A stretch of 64,000 nucleotides of DNA from a virus (Duplodnaviria; Caudoviricetes): positions 1 to 64,000 of the IMG/VR virus record IMGVR_UViG_2898571807_000002. One strand, given 5' to 3'. How positions within the stretch are numbered: position 1 is the first letter of the stretch; each line of letters opens with the position of its first letter. Position numbers and translations under genes: made by a program. Positions 23,450 through 28,539 of the stretch are shown here, one piece after another. Under the pieces are notes generated by a model. The model was not told where the DNA came from. It saw nothing but the letters and a program-made list of their open reading frames with translations, and did not search any database.

Positions 23450-24502
23450 GTGACCGAACTTGTCCCCCACGGCACCGAAGGTCTTCCGGTGGCCCGCCTA
23501 CTCACGATCACCGGGCCTCCGAAGGGAACCGCCGACCCCTACGTGGCTTACAAAGACTCGCTCGACAGTCCCGAGTCCAAGACCACCATGACGAGGTGCC
23601 TCGACCGGATCGCATTAATGATTCTTGAGGCGGAGATCGGCGGGCCGCTCCCCCGAGACCACCCACCGGTGACCGGCGCAGGGCGTTCCTGGTGGCTCCT
23701 GCGATATGAGCACACCTCACGTATCCGCGCCCTACTGGTAGCAAGGGGCTGGTCACCCAGCAACGTCAATAAGCACCTGTCGGCGCTTCGCCGGGTCCTT
23801 GAAGAGTGCAAGTTCCTCGGCCTGATGACAGCAGACGAGTACGACGCGGCTGCCCGAATCAAGAACGTAGAGGCTAAGCGGGAGAAAGCTGGCCGGAGTC
23901 TCGACTCGGACGAACTGTTCTCGATGCTGCGCGTGTGCGCGAACGTTGATGGAGCGTCAGGGGTTCGCGATGCCGCTCTGATCTCTGTCCTTTGGTGCAC
24001 GGGCGCGCGACGCGAAGAGGTCGCGAACATCCTGCTTGAGCGCTACGACGCTGGCGCCCGGGCGCTCCGCATCATCGGCAAGGGCAACAAAGAACGCACC
24101 GTGTACATCCATCCGCAGGTACTCCCCCACCTCAACGCCTGGCTGGCGTTGCTCGGGGCGCGCCGCGGTCCGATGTTCCGCCCGGTCGACCGGTGGGGCC
24201 ATGTGCGTTCGGACTCAATGTCCAAGCGCGCGATCGGAATGGTGGTCGCCCGAGTTCGCGCCCGCGCAGGGCTACCGCCACTGTCCACCCACGACTTCCG
24301 CCACACCTTCATCGGTGACCTACTCGACAAGGGCGTGGACCTGGCTACGGTGCAGGCGCTCGTCGGGCACGCCTCTCCTGTCACTACCGCGTCCTACGAT
24401 CGGCGACCAGAGCGCGTCAAACGCGAAGCCGTGGACAGCCTGGACTTCCCTGGGCCGCAGGCTGCTACCCCGCCCCTGGCGGATGACGACACCGAGGAGT
24501 GA
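23450..24502 (+). CDS. tyrosine recombinase (XerC/D-like integrase or resolvase)
   Basis: TGARREE, GKGNK, HDFRH, LVGH, TASY catalytic motifs. Confidence 0.95.
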   Translation: MTELVPHGTEGLPVARLLTITGPPKGTADPYVAYKDSLDSPESKTTMTRCLDRIALMILEAEIGGPLPRDHPPVTGAGRSWWLLRYEHTSRIRALLVARGWSPSNVNKHLSALRRVLEECKFLGLMTADEYDAAARIKNVEAKREKAGRSLDSDELFSMLRVCANVDGASGVRDAALISVLWCTGARREEVANILLERYDAGARALRIIGKGNKERTVYIHPQVLPHLNAWLALLGARRGPMFRPVDRWGHVRSDSMSKRAIGMVVARVRARAGLPPLSTHDFRHTFIGDLLDKGVDLATVQALVGHASPVTTASYDRRPERVKREAVDSLDFPGPQAATPPLADDDTEE

Positions 24503-24506
24503 CCGC

Positions 24507-25958
24507 GTGGCAAACGAGGCGACTGGAACCGTCTACGCGCTCGTCGACCCGCGGACCAACGCCGTCCGCTACATCGGGGCCACCACCAGGCCGCTGAAAA
24601 CCCGCTTGCAAGGGCATCTGAAGAGCCGCGTCCCGCGGGTGAAGGCATGGGTCGATGAACTCTCCGCATCGGATGTTATACCTCGAATCGAGGCCATCAC
24701 CGAAGGAGTCGCCGCACGCGATCTCCAGGAGGCTGAACGAGCTGAGATCACTCGGCGCCTGATCGCGGGCGAAAAGCTCCTGAACGAGTCCGCCACCGCC
24801 ACCGCCAGGAAGCACATCGAGCATCAGCGTCAGCTCGCTCGGCAGGAGCGCCACCGCGCGGCTTGGGAGCACGCCGCGCACCAAGTCCGCAACGCCGTGG
24901 GCGGGCCTCTCCCCCCAGGCGATATCACGCCGATCCCACTCAACGAGGCGGCTCGGACGGCCTACGGCTCCATGCTGCAGATCATGAACGCTCCAGATGA
25001 GGCGTTCGATTCTTCATGCGGCGACCGCAAGCTCAGCAGGAGCACCCACCTGATGCTGATGCGCGAAACCGCAGGCGAAGAACTCTGGCGATCCACTCAG
25101 GCAAGGTGGGGACGTCTACGGTCCGCGGCCGATAAGAGCTTTGACACGGTGCTCGCTGGGCGTGTGCACTCTGTATTCGCCAACCGCTGGACCGACCTGA
25201 ACGTGGCTCCCCGCTATCTCGCGCTGGTGCCGTGGGGAATGGTGGCGGTCGGTCCGTGGGCAGCGCTTGCTGAACGCGCTGGCATGGATGCGTCGGGGCA
25301 GGACTTTATCGACTGGGTTTCCGATGATCCTTCAGTGCGCGAAGCGCTCACCGTTCTCCTGCTCCGGTCCGATGGTCGCATGGGGCCGCTCTCGGTGCTG
25401 GACGACTACGACCGCGTCATGCGGCCATCGACCGGTTTGGTCGCGCTGACCGCGGCTCACCACCCTGGCTTCGAAATGCCCGATGTCCTGGGCGCAGAGG
25501 TTAGGGGGTTTATCGAGGTGTTGCAGCGAGGCGACCTGCTAACCCCTGGGATCGTCGAGCTTCTCCTGAAGCTGGCCCCCGAAGCCCTCGACAACATCCT
25601 CGGCCCCGACCTCGCTGCCTCCATCGACAGTCAACTGGGGCTTCCGGCCGGTACCTCATGTGACGTGCTGACGGCTCTGCTGAAGAGGAGGAGTGCTTGG
25701 CAGCTTCGCGACCTCGACCGCGTCGTTGCGCGGGCGCAGGGGGCGTTCCCAACCATTACCACCCCAGATTTCACGCGGTGGACAGGCTCGACCGCTCCGA
25801 TGTTTCAGGCGATCGTGGCGGCGCTGGTCGCCTCTGAACACCTCCCAGCGCCGATCGGAACAGCACCCGACGATCTTGTAGATCGGGTTCGCGCTCTTTG
25901 GCGCGGCGGTCTGGAGCCCGATGATTACCCATTTATACCGGCGTCTAGGTTCGTCTAG
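24507..25958 (+). CDS. GIY-YIG-domain protein with a long helical C-terminus
   Basis: TVYALVDPRTNAVRYIGATTRPLKTRLQGH...AERAEI...LLN. Confidence 0.7.
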   Translation: MANEATGTVYALVDPRTNAVRYIGATTRPLKTRLQGHLKSRVPRVKAWVDELSASDVIPRIEAITEGVAARDLQEAERAEITRRLIAGEKLLNESATATARKHIEHQRQLARQERHRAAWEHAAHQVRNAVGGPLPPGDITPIPLNEAARTAYGSMLQIMNAPDEAFDSSCGDRKLSRSTHLMLMRETAGEELWRSTQARWGRLRSAADKSFDTVLAGRVHSVFANRWTDLNVAPRYLALVPWGMVAVGPWAALAERAGMDASGQDFIDWVSDDPSVREALTVLLLRSDGRMGPLSVLDDYDRVMRPSTGLVALTAAHHPGFEMPDVLGAEVRGFIEVLQRGDLLTPGIVELLLKLAPEALDNILGPDLAASIDSQLGLPAGTSCDVLTALLKRRSAWQLRDLDRVVARAQGAFPTITTPDFTRWTGSTAPMFQAIVAALVASEHLPAPIGTAPDDLVDRVRALWRGGLEPDDYPFIPASRFV

Positions 25959-26285: not shown

Positions 26286-26340
26286 GCCCCCGCCAATATC
26301 AAGATGCGTACTTGCCGGGGATGGGTTACCTTCCGAGCTA

Positions 26341-26421
26341 GTACCTCCCGGTGCGAAGGCCACGGGTTACTTCTTTCACCCAGAAACCCAACCCGAGGCT
26401 GTCTCTGATCTCGGGAGGCAC
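26341..26421 (+). ncRNA. Y RNA-like unit 1 (short, no tRNA domain)
   Basis: GTACCTCCCG-GTGCG ... GATCT-CGGGAGGCAC terminal stem; upstream of the TROVE gene. Confidence 0.75.
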
Positions 26422-26427
26422 GACAAC

Positions 26428-26584
26428 TTCAGAGCGCGCCCGGTGCGATAGGTGAGGGCTACTTCCTCTGCAAAAGGAGAGACGCGGGTTCGAATCCCGC
26501 CGCCAGCTCACGCTGGTGTGGACGAGTGGCCTAAGTCGCTTACGTTTCCTTCGCCGACCTTTGATCTCGGGCGCGTCCTCTGAA
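26428..26584 (+). ncRNA. Y RNA-like unit 2 (YrlA-like; permuted tRNA-Cys domain)
   Basis: CGCGCCCG-GTGCG / GATCT-CGGGCGCG stem; anticodon arm TTCCT-CTGCAAA-AGGAG, T arm GCGGG-TTCGAAT-CCCGC, closed acceptor CGCCAGC-TCAC-GCTGGTG, D arm GAC-GAGTGGCCTAA-GTC. Confidence 0.85.
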
Positions 26585-26597
26585 CACAACTGAATAC

Positions 26598-26728
26598 GCA
26601 CCTCCCGGTGCGTAGGCGATAACGGGTACTTCGCAGGTTCGATTCCTGTCGCGGGCCGCCGTCAGGCTTCCGCTCGCGACGCCCATGTTGGGGGCATCCC
26701 CGTACGCCGACTTGATCTCGGGAGGAGC
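26598..26728 (+). ncRNA. Y RNA-like unit 3 (degenerate tRNA-like domain)
   Basis: CCTCCCG-GTGCG / GATCT-CGGGAGG stem; T arm GCAGG-TTCGATT-CCTGT; acceptor-like CGCGGGC/GCTCGCG. Confidence 0.75.
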
Positions 26729-26736
26729 ACATACAT

Positions 26737-26890
26737 CGCGGGTGCCCGGTGCGAAGGCAACGGCTCCTTCCTTGTTAATTCATGGGTCGTGGGTTCAAAT
26801 CCCACCACCGTCTTCGGGCGGTGTAGCTCAGTTCGGCAGAGCAATGAACGTGTCGACCGTCGCCGACTTCTGATCTCGGGCGCCACCGCG
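26737..26890 (+). ncRNA. Y RNA-like unit 4 (YrlA-like; permuted tRNA-Asn-like domain)
   Basis: GGTGCCCG-GTGCG / GATCT-CGGGCGCC stem; TGTTAA-TTCAT, T arm GTGGG-TTCAAAT-CCCAC, acceptor CACCGTC-TTCG-GGCGGTG, D arm GCTC-AGTTCGGCA-GAGC, then ATGAA. Confidence 0.85.
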
Positions 26891-26896
26891 AACAGT

Positions 26897-26930
26897 GAGG
26901 CTCCTCTCCCCCCTGCGAGAGGAGCTTTTC
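26897..26930 (+). terminator. hairpin plus T tract overlapping the Ro60 RBS
   Basis: 9-bp perfect stem GCTCCTCTC/GAGAGGAGC followed by TTTT; GGAG lies in the 3' arm, 10 nt from ATG 26935. Confidence 0.6.
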
Positions 26931-26934
26931 GCAT

Positions 26935-28539
26935 ATGGCCAAGTTCAACCAGACCGGCACCCGTCCCGCGGCATTCAGCCCTGTGAAGACCGAGCAGGTC
27001 CCGTCCGGACGGACGTACGAGGGTGCACCCGGCTACGCCCGCTCTGACGCCCGCTCGGAACTCTTCCTCCTCGCGGTCGCGAACATGGTCGGCGAGGACA
27101 ACTTCTACGAGAAGGCCGTCGACCGGGACGCCCGTTTCCGTGACCTCGTCCACCAGGTCGCCGTCGACGACGTCGAGTGGATGTCCGAGTTCCTGCCGTG
27201 GCTGCGGAGCGAGGCGAACATGCGCTCGGCGCCCGTCGTCGCGGCGCTGGAGGCCGTCCGGGCGCGGCTGGCCGCGGGCCTGTCCGGTGGTAACCGGCAG
27301 CTCGTCGCGAACGTGCTGCAGCGCGCCGACGAGCCTGGCGAGGCGCTCGCCTACTGGACCTCGACCTACGGTCGCGCGGTGCCGAAGCCGGTGAAGCGCG
27401 GCATCGCGGACGCTGTGCAGCGGCTCTACAACGAGCGGTCCCTGCTGAAGTACGACACAGCCACCAAGGGATTCCGGTTCGGTGACGTGATCGACCTCGT
27501 CCACCCGGCGCCGGCGGCGGACAAGCCGTGGCAGGGTGCCCTGTTCGAGCACGCGCTCGACCGGCGTCACGGCCGCGACAGCGAGCCTGCGCTGCCGATG
27601 CTGCTGGCCCGCGAGACGCTCATGGCGGTGCCCGTCGCCGAGCGCCGCGGCGTGCTGCTCGCCGCGGACGGCCCGGAGCGGCTGCGCGCGGCGGGCATCA
27701 CCTGGGAGGCCCTCGCGGGCTGGCTCCAGGGGCCGATGGACTCCGCGGCGTGGGAGGCGGTCATCCCGTCCATGGGGTACATGGCGCTGCTGCGGAACCT
27801 GAGGAACTTCGACGAGGCGGGGGTCTCCGACGAGGTCGCGGAGCGTGTCGCGGCGAGGCTGGCGGATCCGGATGAGGTCGCGCGGTCGCGGCAGTTCCCG
27901 TTCCGGTTCTTCTCCGCGTACCTGGCGGCGCCGTCGCTGCGCTGGGGCCACGCCCTCGACAAGGCGCTCACGGCGGCCACGGCGAACGTCCCGGCGTTCC
28001 TGGGCCGCACCCTCGTCCTGGTCGACACCTCGGCGTCGATGAGTTCCGTGGGCGTCTCGGAGCGGTCGAAGATGACGTACGCGCAGATGGCCGCCCTGTT
28101 CGGCGTCGCCCTCGCCGCTCGCGGCAACGACGTCGACCTCCACGGCTTCGCCACCGGCACCTTCCGTCACGCCGTCCGACGCAGCGCGTCCGTGCTGAAG
28201 GAGGTCGATCGGTTCTGTGGGCGGATCGGCGAGGTCGGGCATGGCACGCAGATCGCCGAGTCGGTCCGAGCGACCTACACCGGGCACGACCGGGTGATCA
28301 TCCTGTCCGACATGCAGACTTTCGGCGGAGGCTGGGCCGGGCCCGTCACCTCTGCGGCCCCGAAGCACGTGCCCATGTACGCCTTTAACCTCGCCGGTTA
28401 CAAGCACGGCGCGATCCCGTCCGGCTCAGACAACCGCCATGAGCTGGGCGGCATGACCGACGCGACGTTCCGGCTTATCCCGCTCCTGGAGGCTGGGCGG
28501 AACGCTGCTTGGCCGTGGGAGGAGCAGGCTGCGGCGTGA
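26935..28539 (+). CDS. Ro60/TROVE-domain RNA-binding protein (Rsr-like) with vWA domain
   Basis: DNFYE, KY..., ITWE, MGYMALLRNLRN, SRQFPFRFFSAY, vWA LVDTSASM, GHGT, IILSDMQ. Confidence 0.93.
   Translation: MAKFNQTGTRPAAFSPVKTEQVPSGRTYEGAPGYARSDARSELFLLAVANMVGEDNFYEKAVDRDARFRDLVHQVAVDDVEWMSEFLPWLRSEANMRSAPVVAALEAVRARLAAGLSGGNRQLVANVLQRADEPGEALAYWTSTYGRAVPKPVKRGIADAVQRLYNERSLLKYDTATKGFRFGDVIDLVHPAPAADKPWQGALFEHALDRRHGRDSEPALPMLLARETLMAVPVAERRGVLLAADGPERLRAAGITWEALAGWLQGPMDSAAWEAVIPSMGYMALLRNLRNFDEAGVSDEVAERVAARLADPDEVARSRQFPFRFFSAYLAAPSLRWGHALDKALTAATANVPAFLGRTLVLVDTSASMSSVGVSERSKMTYAQMAALFGVALAARGNDVDLHGFATGTFRHAVRRSASVLKEVDRFCGRIGEVGHGTQIAESVRATYTGHDRVIILSDMQTFGGGWAGPVTSAAPKHVPMYAFNLAGYKHGAIPSGSDNRHELGGMTDATFRLIPLLEAGRNAAWPWEEQAAA

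What the first reader, a model, noticed from the sequence alone, without database searches (positions are those of the whole stretch)
26341..28539. Ro60 gene with a tandem array of four modular Y-RNA-like units
Seen: four consecutive 80-155 nt units directly upstream of a TROVE/vWA gene. Each opens with CCCGGTGCG and closes with GATCTCGGG, forming a terminal stem whose outer pairs differ between units. All share an internal (A/C)CTTC box (TACTTC in units 1-3, TCCTTC in unit 4) and are separated by short unpaired A/C-rich linkers. The cargo differs: none in unit 1, a permuted tRNA-Cys in unit 2, a degenerate T+acceptor domain in unit 3, and a permuted tRNA-Asn-like domain in unit 4. Known: bacterial Ro60 (Rsr) binds Y RNAs; YrlA-class RNAs carry a permuted tRNA-like domain; the locus often sits with RtcB/RtcA repair genes, which I did not see in this window. 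Inference: a mobile element expresses one Ro60 with a polycistronic set of interchangeable RNA adaptors or tRNA decoys, processed at the linkers, possibly to tether different effectors or to counter tRNA-targeting defences.
Basis: partly seen in the sequence, partly recalled or inferred. Interest (0 to 1): 0.92.

Follow-up and report, generated by a model that had tools for sequence, protein, structure and literature searches.

The report
Ro60 gene with four Y RNAs
A predicted prophage of an actinomycete carries the ring-shaped RNA-binding protein Ro60 preceded by four small partner RNA genes (Y RNAs), three of them rearranged tRNA look-alikes. The feature is real and strongly conserved, but it is a further example of a system already described in mycobacteria and phages.

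Summary
Four same-strand units at 26344-26418, 26434-26576, 26601-26725 and 26741-26884 each open with CCCGGTGCG and close with GATCTCGGG. All carry an (A/C)CTTC box, are separated by A/C-rich linkers, and lie directly 5' of a full-length Ro60/Rsr gene (26935-28539; fold confirmed).

The same handle-plus-cargo units precede homologous Ro60 genes in nearly all of 80 actinomycete genome loci, and in most of the IMG/VR contigs and all five cultured actinophages examined. Arrays hold 1-8 units. Covariation is strong: 95.5% of cells paired, 28 of 35 pairs compensatory.

Unit 2 is a complete circularly permuted cloverleaf with a closed anticodon-like arm (loop CUGCAAA). Unit 4 has a split anticodon stem. 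Unit 3 matches the M. smegmatis YrlB type. Unit 1 is a short hairpin Y RNA.

The "Cys" and "Asn" labels rest on the loop alone. The triplet is hypervariable among close relatives, and the bodies are not specifically like genuine Cys or Asn tRNAs.

The nearest 4-unit cassette sits among ordinary chromosomal genes, so the array is not special to mobile elements. Decoy or counter-defence roles are untested.

Verdict: a new member of the known Ro60/Y RNA (YrlA/YrlB) kind. This scan found the same cassette before on other DNA.

The parts
26296..26340 (+). Possible promoter region for the array. It aligns with a conserved AATATTCGGTTGTGC ... TGGTCTCCT block found upstream of unit 1 in related 4-unit cassettes; the window copy is degenerate.
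   Evidence: Alignment A5 of six loci whose further upstream flanks are unrelated. The consensus promoter scan found nothing, so this part is inferred only.
26344..26418 (+). Y RNA unit 1 (75 nt). It has the handle (6-bp end stem, GGUGCGA / UGAUCUC, 9-bp connector helix), a UACUUC box and a 4-bp hairpin with the pyrimidine-rich loop UUCACCC. It has no tRNA-like part and is a short YrlB/Yrn2-type Y RNA.
   Evidence: Alignment A1 of 33 such short units shows invariant GGTGCG, T.C.TC and CTC, and five end-stem pairs with compensatory changes. The connector helix is supported by a cognate versus non-cognate duplex test: -15.9 vs -11.6 kcal/mol, 0 of 2000 permutations as good. Model R1, built from long units, did not reach E<=1 on this unit.
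26434..26576 (+). Y RNA unit 2 (143 nt). The handle carries a complete circularly permuted cloverleaf: anticodon-like arm 26465-26479 (loop CUGCAAA), 4-nt variable loop, T arm 26484-26500, 7-bp acceptor stem closed by UCAC 26501-26518, and D arm 26521-26537. The chain break lies between positions 28 and 29 of the anticodon stem.
   Evidence: R1 scores 99.9 bits, E 2.6e-21. Rfam YrlA gives only 14.7 bits. The de-permuted sequence is called tRNA-Cys(gca) by ARAGORN. The trans pairs 27:43 and 28:42 covary across 81 units.
26601..26725 (+). Y RNA unit 3 (125 nt). The T arm (26633-26649) follows the box directly, then a long acceptor-like hairpin (26650-26678) and a 4-bp hairpin GCCC...GGGC (26681-26695). 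There is no anticodon-like arm. The design matches M. smegmatis YrlB (ACUUC followed by GGUUCGA).
   Evidence: R1 scores 55.5 bits and Rfam YrlA 19.2 bits. The class is conserved at the same array position in 18 loci, with 25 predicted pairs, 7 of them compensatory. The YrlB probe sequence is given in PMC4201824.
26741..26884 (+). Y RNA unit 4 (144 nt), YrlA type. It has T arm 26789-26805, a 7-bp acceptor stem closed by UUCG 26806-26823, and D arm 26826-26842. A 5-bp anticodon stem forms in trans between UUCAU (26779-26783) and AUGAA (26844-26848). UUGUUAA (26772-26778) occupies loop positions 32-38. The box variant is UCCUUC.
   Evidence: R1 scores 104.7 bits. Rfam YrlA scores 49.4 bits, E 5.9e-10, below the gathering score of 69. 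The trans stem shows compensatory changes in L010, L028, L055, L063 and L073. The de-permuted sequence is called tRNA-Asn(gtt).
26897..26928 (+). A 12-bp hairpin between the last Y RNA and the Ro60 start codon. Its 3' arm is the Shine-Dalgarno sequence (GAGAGGAGC), followed by UUUU. It is probably a translation-limiting and/or partial terminator element, or a 5' hairpin that stabilises the mRNA.
   Evidence: RNAfold gives -24.5 kcal/mol, z -3.5. Comparable anti-SD/SD hairpins occur in 63 homologous loci, with median z -2.5; the SD-like tetramer is fully paired in 67%.
26935..28539 (+). Ro60/Rsr gene (534 aa): a TROVE HEAT-repeat ring plus a vWA domain with the MIDAS motif DxSxS.
   Evidence: Pfam TROVE 4.4e-17. 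phrog_850 'RNA-binding protein' 1.9e-48 over residues 18-531. PDB sequence match to Thermus phage phiLo Ro60, 1.6e-25. AlphaFold2 model with pLDDT 80. The top Foldseek PDB hits, ranks 1-13, are all Ro60 structures (9kop, 9l5y, 1yvp, 2nvo, 9nen), TM 0.56-0.78.
23450..24502 (+). Context only: a tyrosine recombinase (phage integrase family) 2.4 kb upstream of the cassette.
   Evidence: Pfam Phage_integrase 4.5e-22 and NCBIfam XerC/XerD-like matches below cut-off. Integrases also lie 2-4 kb from Ro60 in seven IMG/VR loci.

Best explanation
This is an rsr (Ro60) cassette with four Y RNA genes.

Inferred from the same-strand tandem layout, the lack of internal terminators, the A/C-rich unstructured linkers and the M. 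smegmatis precedent: the units are transcribed as one precursor, probably continuing into the Ro60 mRNA, and are cut in the linkers into four RNAs of about 75-145 nt.

Shown by comparative analysis: each RNA folds into the same handle. The handle is an end stem that covaries freely, an invariant bulged helix formed by GGUGCG(A) on the 5' strand and (U)GAUCUC on the 3' strand, and a covarying connector helix ending in the UACUUC box.

Inferred from likeness to the GGUCCGA Ro60 contact site of vertebrate Y RNAs: the handle is the Ro60 binding site. One Ro60 protein can therefore be loaded with any of four RNAs.

The distal ends differ between units. One is a small hairpin, one is a T-arm/acceptor-like module, and two are near-complete tRNA mimics whose acceptor stem is closed by a loop.

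By analogy with D. radiodurans, S. Typhimurium and phage phiLo: these modules act as adaptors and gates. They tether Ro60 to tRNA-binding or RNA-degrading partners such as PNPase, and they control access to the ring.

Units 2 and 4 have 7-bp acceptor stems. Like M. smegmatis YrlA, they are likely to be nicked by RNase P and given a CCA end. This step is inferred.

An SD-sequestering hairpin probably keeps Ro60 translation low relative to the RNAs. This is also inferred.
For: Motifs and layout.

Ro60 identity by sequence and fold.

Hits of R1, a model built from 47 homologous units: 104.7, 99.9 and 55.5 bits on units 4, 2 and 3.

Homologous loci: 219 R1 hits clustered just upstream of Ro60 in 80 actinomycete loci.

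Covariation: 95.5% of cells paired against 34-50% when partners are slid; 28 of 35 pairs with compensatory changes; no shuffle of 500 reaches the observed value.

Short-unit class. Unit-3 class.

Similar arrays occur in IMG/VR contigs and in the cultured phages BRock, Alone3, Satis, VanLee and Atuin.

Literature: Rsr binds YrlA and YrlB in M. smegmatis. [quoted passage not shown] YrlA is cut by RNase P and receives CCA because of its 7-bp acceptor stem. GGUCCGA is the Ro60 contact in Xenopus (PMC4201824). Phage phiLo Ro60 binds two upstream Y RNA-like RNAs and forms complexes with host PNPase (PMC12135203).
Against: There is no expression or binding data for this locus. None of the four units reaches Rfam's YrlA gathering score; the best is 49.4 against 69. 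The published bacterial motif GNCGAAN0-1G is not matched exactly: the units have GGUGCGAAGG, GGUGCGAUAGG and GGUGCGUAGG. No promoter was found by the consensus scan. The partner proteins of the modules are unknown in any actinomycete. No RtcB/RtcA is present, so the Salmonella regulatory context does not apply.
Confidence: 0.82

Rival explanations
1. The tRNA-like units are mainly decoys or baits for enzymes that act on tRNA anticodon loops, such as anticodon nucleases, toxins of toxin-antitoxin systems, or modification enzymes. An array would offer several 'anticodons', and Ro60 would serve as carrier or sensor in phage-host conflict.
For: The hairpin after the box mimics an anticodon arm. 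In 55 clean cases the 7-nt loop has Y32 (51/55), U33 (48/55), R37 (51/55) and A38 (49/55), and a 4-5-nt variable loop precedes the T arm. Positions 34-36 are among the most variable columns within one genus, while 32, 33, 37 and 38 are fixed. Triplets differ between orthologous units of the closest relatives. The cassettes are frequent in phages and lie beside phage tRNA clusters.
Against: Variation at 34-36 is also what neutral drift at unconstrained loop positions would give. Many loops are not anticodon-like (the NNNGGGA group), and units 1 and 3 have no such arm. The same arrays sit in ordinary chromosomal contexts. No nuclease or defence gene is consistently linked, and the flanks share no genes. 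No experiment bears on this.
Confidence: 0.1
2. The array acts mainly in cis as a long structured leader of the Ro60 mRNA, for example for autoregulation by Ro60 binding to its own leader or for mRNA stabilisation, rather than as a source of stable trans-acting RNAs.
For: The array is on the same strand as the ORF, with no strong terminator between them. A conserved SD-sequestering hairpin sits directly before the start codon. The spacing between the last unit and the ATG is constant at about 35-55 nt.
Against: In M. smegmatis the equivalent RNAs accumulate as discrete Rsr-bound species (PMC4201824). In phage Atuin, R1 finds its strong hits downstream of Ro60 and only a marginal one (E 0.15) upstream, and L066 has a unit downstream of the gene. 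The unit number varies from 1 to 8 without change in the gene. The two roles are not mutually exclusive.
Confidence: 0.05
3. The units are decaying tRNA gene remnants, or tRNA-like integration targets, with no function of their own.
For: Tyrosine integrases often target tRNA genes, and one lies 2.4 kb away. ARAGORN calls the 5' part of some homologous units a tRNA.
Against: The handle is invariant and every helix covaries across families and orders of Actinomycetes and their phages. ARAGORN finds no tRNA in the window in native order. No att-like repeat was found.
Confidence: 0.02

Closest known systems
Mycobacterium smegmatis rsr locus with YrlA and YrlB (Chen et al. 2014, RNA 20:1715, PMC4201824)
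   Same: An actinobacterial Ro60 gene is preceded on the same strand by tandem Y RNAs made from one precursor. YrlA has a T arm, a 7-bp closed acceptor stem and a D arm, and is preceded by a hairpin with a 7-nt loop (CCA-CUUCUAA-UGG, read from the published probe). YrlB has an ACUUC box followed directly by a T arm, as in unit 3 here.
   Different: There are four units instead of two. The extra ones are a short hairpin unit and a second full tRNA mimic. The order also differs: in M. smegmatis YrlB lies between YrlA and rsr. The setting here is a predicted provirus. I read the hairpin that Chen et al. call the variable arm as an anticodon-arm mimic, on the basis of its loop signature, the 4-5-nt variable loop after it, and the covarying 27:43 and 28:42 pairs.
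Salmonella Typhimurium YrlA (Rfam RF02553; structure 6CU1, bioRxiv 10.1101/312249) and YrlB
   Same: A Y RNA with a Ro60-binding stem and a tRNA-like effector domain in the order T arm, closed acceptor stem, D arm. It is encoded next to rsr, and a second, shorter Y RNA is present.
   Different: Salmonella YrlA has no anticodon loop and a 6-bp acceptor stem, and it lies in the RtcR-controlled rsr-rtcBA operon. Here there is no rtcB. The anticodon-like loop is kept, closed in unit 2 and split in unit 4. Both strands of the Ro60 helix are conserved. The Rfam model scores only 15-49 bits.
Deinococcus radiodurans Rsr with Yrn1/Yrn2 (four small RNAs upstream of rsr)
   Same: Several small RNAs are encoded upstream of rsr. 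Both strands of the Ro60-binding helix are recognisable, as in animal Y RNAs. One RNA is tRNA-like and one is a long hairpin with a pyrimidine-rich loop.
   Different: The tRNA-like module of Yrn1 has the opposite arm order and is thought to have arisen independently (PMC4201824). No sequence similarity was detected here.
Thermus phage phiLo Ro60 with Yrl1 and Yrl2 (NAR 2025, PMC12135203; PDB 9KOP, 9L5Y)
   Same: A phage-encoded Ro60 with Y RNA-like genes directly upstream. It is the best match of this protein in the PDB by both sequence and fold.
   Different: There are two RNAs, not four. Protein identity is only 24%. The paper describes no tRNA-like cloverleaf for Yrl1 or Yrl2 in the passages I read.
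Vertebrate Y RNAs (two to four per species) with Ro60
   Same: One Ro60 protein is served by a small family of Y RNAs that share a conserved bulged terminal helix (GGUCCGA contact site, against GGUGCGA here) and differ in their distal loops.
   Different: The animal genes are separate RNA polymerase III genes without tRNA-like modules. Rfam's metazoan Y_RNA model gave no hit here.

Membership tests
Ro60 / Rsr (TROVE + vWA ring protein) | TROVE domain detectable by sequence | tested here: met
   Pfam PF05731 4.4e-17, 62.8 bits against a cut-off of 23. phrog_850 1.9e-48 over nearly the full length. phiLo Ro60 1.6e-25.
Ro60 / Rsr (TROVE + vWA ring protein) | HEAT-repeat ring closed by a vWA domain, similar in fold to solved Ro60 structures | tested here: met
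   AlphaFold2 model with pLDDT 80 and pTM 0.77. Foldseek PDB ranks 1-13 are all Ro60 (phage, Xenopus, Deinococcus, human) over about 500 aligned columns, TM 0.56-0.78.
Ro60 / Rsr (TROVE + vWA ring protein) | MIDAS motif DxSxS in the vWA domain | tested here: met
   V-D-T-S-A-S-M is encoded at 28026-28046 (read). D364, S366 and S368 are invariant in 16 homologues.
Ro60 / Rsr (TROVE + vWA ring protein) | Binds Y RNAs in vivo | not testable with these tools
   Requires pull-down or EMSA.
Bacterial Y RNA, YrlA class (Rfam RF02553) | Encoded within 4 kb of, and on the same strand as, a Ro60 gene (criterion of Chen et al. 2014) | tested here: met
   All four units lie 50-590 nt upstream of the ORF on the + strand.
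Bacterial Y RNA, YrlA class (Rfam RF02553) | Reaches the Rfam gathering score (69 bits) | tested here: not met
   Unit 4 scores 49.4 bits (E 5.9e-10), unit 3 19.2 and unit 2 14.7. Nothing reaches gathering in the window. None of 20 homologous loci reaches it either, so the model under-covers this actinomycete subfamily as a whole.
Bacterial Y RNA, YrlA class (Rfam RF02553) | tRNA-like domain in the order T arm, closed acceptor stem, D arm, with conserved T- and D-loop nucleotides | tested here: met
   Met for units 2 and 4, with helix covariation in 150 units. Unit 3 has only the T arm and an acceptor-like hairpin. Unit 1 has none.
Bacterial Y RNA, YrlA class (Rfam RF02553) | 5' Ro60-binding motif GNCGAAN0-1G | tested here: inconclusive
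   The units have GGUGCG followed by AAGG, AUAGG or UAGG. This does not fit the pattern literally, but matches 6 of 7 bases of the vertebrate contact site GGUCCGA in units 1, 2 and 4 and 5 of 7 in unit 3 (GGUGCGU) (PMC4201824). GGUGCG is invariant in the units aligned in A1 and A2.
Bacterial Y RNA, YrlA class (Rfam RF02553) | Stable RNA bound by Rsr | not testable with these tools
   No RNA run holds this sequence.
Short Y RNAs (S. Typhimurium YrlB, D. radiodurans Yrn2 type) | [quoted passage not shown] | tested here: met
   Unit 1 has the handle plus a 4-bp hairpin with loop UUCACCC. Thirty-three homologous short units align.
Genuine tRNA genes (Cys, Asn) | Cloverleaf in native 5'-3' order with free acceptor ends | tested here: not met
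   ARAGORN finds no tRNA in the window. A cloverleaf appears only after the closing loop is opened and the nick rejoined.
Genuine tRNA genes (Cys, Asn) | Body sequence specifically related to the tRNA of that identity | tested here: not met
   The comparison set was 65 distinct tRNAs of Spirillospora G001. For unit 2, tRNA-Cys ranks 2nd by score (22 against 25 for Gly; 68% identity). For unit 4, tRNA-Asn ranks 29th.

The most novel reading that the evidence does not exclude
The actinomycete and actinophage Y RNAs keep a full anticodon-arm mimic whose 'anticodon' triplet turns over quickly while the loop frame stays fixed. Arrays of 2-8 units would then be sets of different tRNA baits carried by Ro60, either to absorb or sense anticodon-directed nucleases and toxins, or to be nicked by RNase P, CCA-tailed and even aminoacylated, during phage-host conflict. 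Where the Y RNA array directly follows a 23-28-gene tRNA array, the two would form one functional tRNA-supply and tRNA-protection module.
Probability: 0.1. Interest if true: 0.8.

Novelty: new member of a known kind. Interest (0 to 1): 0.42.

Why it matters
The role of bacterial and phage Ro60/Y RNA particles is still poorly understood outside Deinococcus and Salmonella. This locus and its several hundred relatives show three things.

- In actinomycetes and their phages, one Ro60 is routinely served by a variable set of 1-8 RNAs that share one handle and carry interchangeable modules.
- The Rfam YrlA model annotates none of them at its gathering threshold.
- Some phage annotations label the 5' parts of these RNAs as tRNA genes.

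The natural variation in unit number, module type and anticodon-like triplet is a ready-made data set for asking what the modules bind. For this window itself the value is correct annotation, not a new mechanism.

Tried and rejected
- Rfam at gathering threshold gave no hit in the window or in 20 homologous loci apart from tRNAs and a riboswitch.
- ARAGORN on the window found no tRNA.
- The consensus promoter and terminator scan found no promoter; its two 'terminators' lie inside units and are parts of the folds.
- blastn of the array against cultured phages gave no match. The RNAs are found only with a structure-aware model.
- Flank synteny: none of eight neighbouring proteins recurs next to Ro60 in the 80 genome loci, apart from one methyltransferase hit. 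In the 80 viral loci only loose integrase matches and single hits appear.
- A search for att-like direct repeats in the 101-kb record found nothing longer than 20 bp and nothing convincing. The prophage boundaries, and whether the left 21 kb is a separate integrative element, remain open.
- RNA evidence: no RNA holder was listed for the stretch, and read laying was not used.
- Two reviews by Sim and Wolin (PMC10870794, PMC6047535) are not held. The literature check therefore rests on the 2014 paper, the 2018 preprint, the 2025 phiLo paper and three full-text searches.
- Derivation of unit 2 from tRNA-Cys and of unit 4 from tRNA-Asn is rejected as unsupported beyond the loop, and beyond U73 in unit 2.
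- The variable-arm reading of the hairpin (Chen et al.) was considered. I judge it less likely than an anticodon-arm mimic for these units, but only a structure could settle this.
Full report
**Observation.** Region 26341-26934 holds four consecutive units on the + strand: 26344-26418, 26434-26576, 26601-26725 and 26741-26884.
- Each begins with CCCGGTGCG (26347, 26439, 26604, 26745) and ends with GATCTCGGG (26407, 26563, 26714, 26872).
- Each is extended by 3-5 further complementary bases that differ between units.
- Each has TACTTC, or TCCTTC in unit 4, about 20 nt after the 5' motif.
- The linkers are 15, 24 and 15 nt and A/C-rich. Over 86 homologous linkers the composition is A 34% and C 33%, against A 15% inside units, and an ACAACU-type motif recurs.
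- All four sequences fold with the two ends paired.

The ORF that follows (26935-28539) is a Ro60.
- Sequence evidence: Pfam TROVE, phrog_850 over nearly its full length, and Thermus phage phiLo Ro60 as the best PDB sequence match.
- Its DxSxS MIDAS motif is invariant among homologues.
- Fold evidence: an AlphaFold2 model with pLDDT 80 whose top PDB matches, ranks 1-13, are all Ro60 structures from phage, frog, Deinococcus and human.

**Is it more than chance, and is it conserved?** Rfam's YrlA model sees unit 4 at 49.4 bits (E 6e-10), unit 3 at 19 and unit 2 at 15. All are below the gathering score of 69.

I fetched 80 genome loci that encode relatives of the protein at 56-79% identity, from Actinomadura, Spirillospora, Nonomuraea, Streptosporangium, Lentzea, Nocardia, Streptomyces and others. 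Nearly all carry the same GGTGCG ... TACTTC ... GATCTC units just upstream of the gene.

Model R1, built from 47 gene-proximal units, gave these results:
- It scores window units 4, 2 and 3 at 104.7, 99.9 and 55.5 bits.
- It finds 219 hits in the 80 loci.
- On the resulting 150-sequence alignment, 95.5% of cells are paired, against 34-50% when partners are slid by 1-3 columns. Twenty-eight of 35 pairs show compensatory changes, and no shuffle of 500 reaches the observed values. That alignment is fitted to the model. The independent MAFFT/RNAalifold run had already given 24 compensatory pairs of 35.

The short unit-1 class, which R1 misses in the window, aligns across 33 loci.
- The handle motifs are invariant, and five end-stem pairs covary.
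- Its connector helix is supported by a cognate versus non-cognate duplex test: -15.9 against -11.6 kcal/mol, with 0 of 2000 permutations as good.

The unit-3 class recurs at the same array position in 18 loci.

**Array size.** By the strict motif method, which gives a lower bound, genome loci hold 1-4 units (14, 32, 21 and 11 loci). IMG/VR loci hold up to 8.
- The covariance model adds more, for example five units in L017 and seven in L150.
- Four-unit arrays in the order short, full mimic, T-arm type, full mimic are typical of Thermomonosporaceae and Streptosporangiaceae (L001, L002, L004, L015, L019-L021, L028).
- Lentzea has three units and Streptomyces two or three.
- The cultured lytic phages BRock, Alone3, Satis, VanLee and Atuin have three or four units beside their 'Ro-like RNA binding protein' genes.

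Four units is therefore ordinary for this clade.

**Anatomy of the cargo.** In many units the hairpin that starts inside the box (UUC...) has a 5-bp stem and a 7-nt loop.
- In 55 clean cases the loop reads Y32 (51/55), U33 (48/55), NNN, R37 (51/55), A38 (49/55). Four or five nucleotides of the xGGUC type follow before the T stem. This is the geometry of an anticodon arm plus a class I variable loop.
- The two bases that follow the D arm and position 26 pair with the last two bases of the hairpin's 3' strand in 90% and 99% of 81 units, against 43% and 68% when partners are shuffled. The anticodon stem is therefore composite. Pairs 27:43 and 28:42 form in trans, and 29-31:39-41 form in cis. The chain is nicked between 28 and 29, where the handle is attached. 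Window unit 2 is of this kind.
- In a second kind, to which window unit 4 belongs, all five stem pairs form in trans (UUCAU/AUGAA, with compensatory variants in L010, L028, L055, L063 and L073). The nick lies between 31 and 32, which leaves UUGUUAA as an open 'loop'.
- Once de-permuted, units 2 and 4 are called complete cloverleaves by ARAGORN, tRNA-Cys(gca) with U73 and tRNA-Asn(gtt).

The identities are not supported.
- I compared the units with 65 distinct tRNAs of a related complete genome. For unit 2, tRNA-Cys ranks second, behind a Gly tRNA. For unit 4, tRNA-Asn ranks 29th.
- The triplet differs among orthologous units of the nearest relatives.
- Within Lentzea, positions 34-36 are among the few hypervariable columns, while 32, 33, 37 and 38 are fixed.

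**What is known.** Chen et al. 2014 (PMC4201824) reported the following:
- YrlA's 7-bp acceptor stem makes it an RNase P substrate that then receives CCA.
- YrlB has a T arm.
- YrlA-like sequences occur in 254 bacteria, including Streptosporangium and Gordonia, and in 22 phages.
- All three species studied have at least two Y RNAs.

The published probes show that M. smegmatis YrlA has the same CCA-(7-nt loop)-UGG hairpin, and that YrlB has ACUUC followed by GGUUCGA, as in unit 3.

Wang et al. 2018 (bioRxiv 10.1101/312249) solved the Salmonella YrlA tRNA-like domain. They noted that it lacks an anticodon loop, and they cite the idea that YrlA arose from a dimeric tRNA transcript. The retained anticodon arm, variable loop and T arm seen here fit that idea.

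The phiLo paper (PMC12135203) shows a phage Ro60 that binds two upstream Y RNA-like RNAs and recruits host PNPase. Three full-text searches found no paper describing larger actinomycete or actinophage arrays. Two reviews were not available.

**Context.** The window is part of a 100,976-bp IMG/VR provirus record.
- A siphovirus module (terminase, tape measure, endolysin) runs leftwards from about 61 kb to 35 kb.
- A tyrosine integrase lies at 23450-24502.
- The genes to the left are mostly without families.
- Just downstream of Ro60 come a SAM methyltransferase, an HTH/DUF5753 regulator and an HATPase_c_2 protein.

The cassette thus lies in an accessory stretch between mobile-element modules. 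I could not place the att sites.

The nearest cassette, L001 in Spirillospora, has the same four-unit array. It is flanked by an alpha/beta hydrolase, a short-chain dehydrogenase and a beta-lactamase-family gene. No flanking gene is shared among the 80 genome loci. At least 144 IMG/VR contigs also carry relatives.

The cassette behaves as a self-contained module that occurs in chromosomes, prophages and lytic phages alike. No RtcB is present.

**Mechanism.**
- *Shown:* a conserved two-strand handle, covarying helices, modular distal ends, and constant linkage to Ro60.
- *Inferred from family knowledge:* the handle binds Ro60; the units are cut out of one transcript; the modules tether or gate Ro60; units 2 and 4 are RNase P and CCA-enzyme substrates.

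A 12-bp hairpin (26897-26928) pairs the Shine-Dalgarno sequence and is followed by UUUU. Comparable hairpins occur in 63 loci, with median z -2.5. This suggests that Ro60 translation or read-through is held down relative to the RNAs.

**Rivals.** All three score low: the decoy or bait reading (0.10), a purely cis-acting leader (0.05), and decaying tRNA remnants (0.02). The first is the most interesting and is not excluded.

**Verdict.** The feature is real, correctly recognised and richly conserved, and it is a new member of the known Ro60/Y RNA (YrlA/YrlB) kind. Earlier notes of this scan describe the same cassette on other DNA. I tested their main claims independently here. Interest is moderate. 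The useful by-products are:
- the subfamily model and its covariation;
- the anticodon-arm reading of the hairpin;
- the link to tRNA arrays;
- the annotation gaps in Rfam and in phage records.

Noticed in passing
L025:4-2509 and L038:131-2530: In a Micromonosporaceae MAG and in Catelliglobosispora koreensis, the Y RNA array and Ro60 gene are directly preceded by same-strand arrays of 28 and 22 tRNA genes. In phages BRock, Alone3 and Atuin the Ro60 gene is likewise embedded in the phage tRNA cluster. Y RNA arrays may be the tail end of tRNA-array operons and may share their processing.
   Followed up: partly
L085:1204-1275 (Gordonia phage VanLee), L083:1274-1347 (Streptomyces phage Alone3), L038:2830-2898: Features annotated or called as tRNA-Arg(tct), tRNA-Ser(gct) and tRNA-Arg(cct) lie inside Y RNA units (R1 hits at 1200-1343, 1267-1416 and 2822-2962). 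The tRNA finder reads the handle's 5' strands as acceptor and D arm and the anticodon-like hairpin as the anticodon arm. These are probably misannotated Y RNAs.
   Followed up: partly
window 26897-26928, and the spacer before the Ro60 start codon in 63 loci: A conserved hairpin has the Shine-Dalgarno sequence as its 3' arm (anti-SD CUCCUC or CCCUCC pairing with GAGGAG or GGAGGG). Only a few copies carry a U tract. It may be a translational brake, a partial terminator, or a protective 5' hairpin of the processed Ro60 mRNA.
   Followed up: partly
L001:2340-2400, L002, L004, L028 (alignment A5); window 26296-26340: Upstream of the first unit, otherwise unrelated flanks share a block holding the palindrome GAATATTC, then GGTTGTGC and, about 17 nt later, TGGTCTCCT. 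This may be an operator plus promoter of the cassette. The window copy is degenerate.
   Followed up: no
L086:3397-3829 (Arthrobacter phage Atuin); L066:5495-5640: In Atuin the three Y RNA units with strong model hits lie downstream of Ro60, between tRNA genes. The only upstream hit is marginal (943-1018, E 0.15). In a Nocardia locus an extra full YrlA-type unit (113 bits) lies about 900 nt downstream of the gene. The upstream position is therefore not obligatory.
   Followed up: no
window 24036-25958 (+): A 640-aa ORF between the integrase and the cassette has no Pfam, NCBIfam or PHROG match. Its 5' end overlaps the integrase ORF, so the true start is probably later. Its one detected relative (29% identity over 503 aa) lies about 1.1 kb downstream of a Ro60 gene in the viral contig locus L165.
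   Followed up: no
linkers between units, e.g. window 26419-26433, 26577-26600, 26726-26740: The linkers share short motifs across genera (CACAACU(G/U)AA...ACGCA before the third unit, GCACAUAC before the fourth). These could mark the endonuclease sites that release the units.
   Followed up: no
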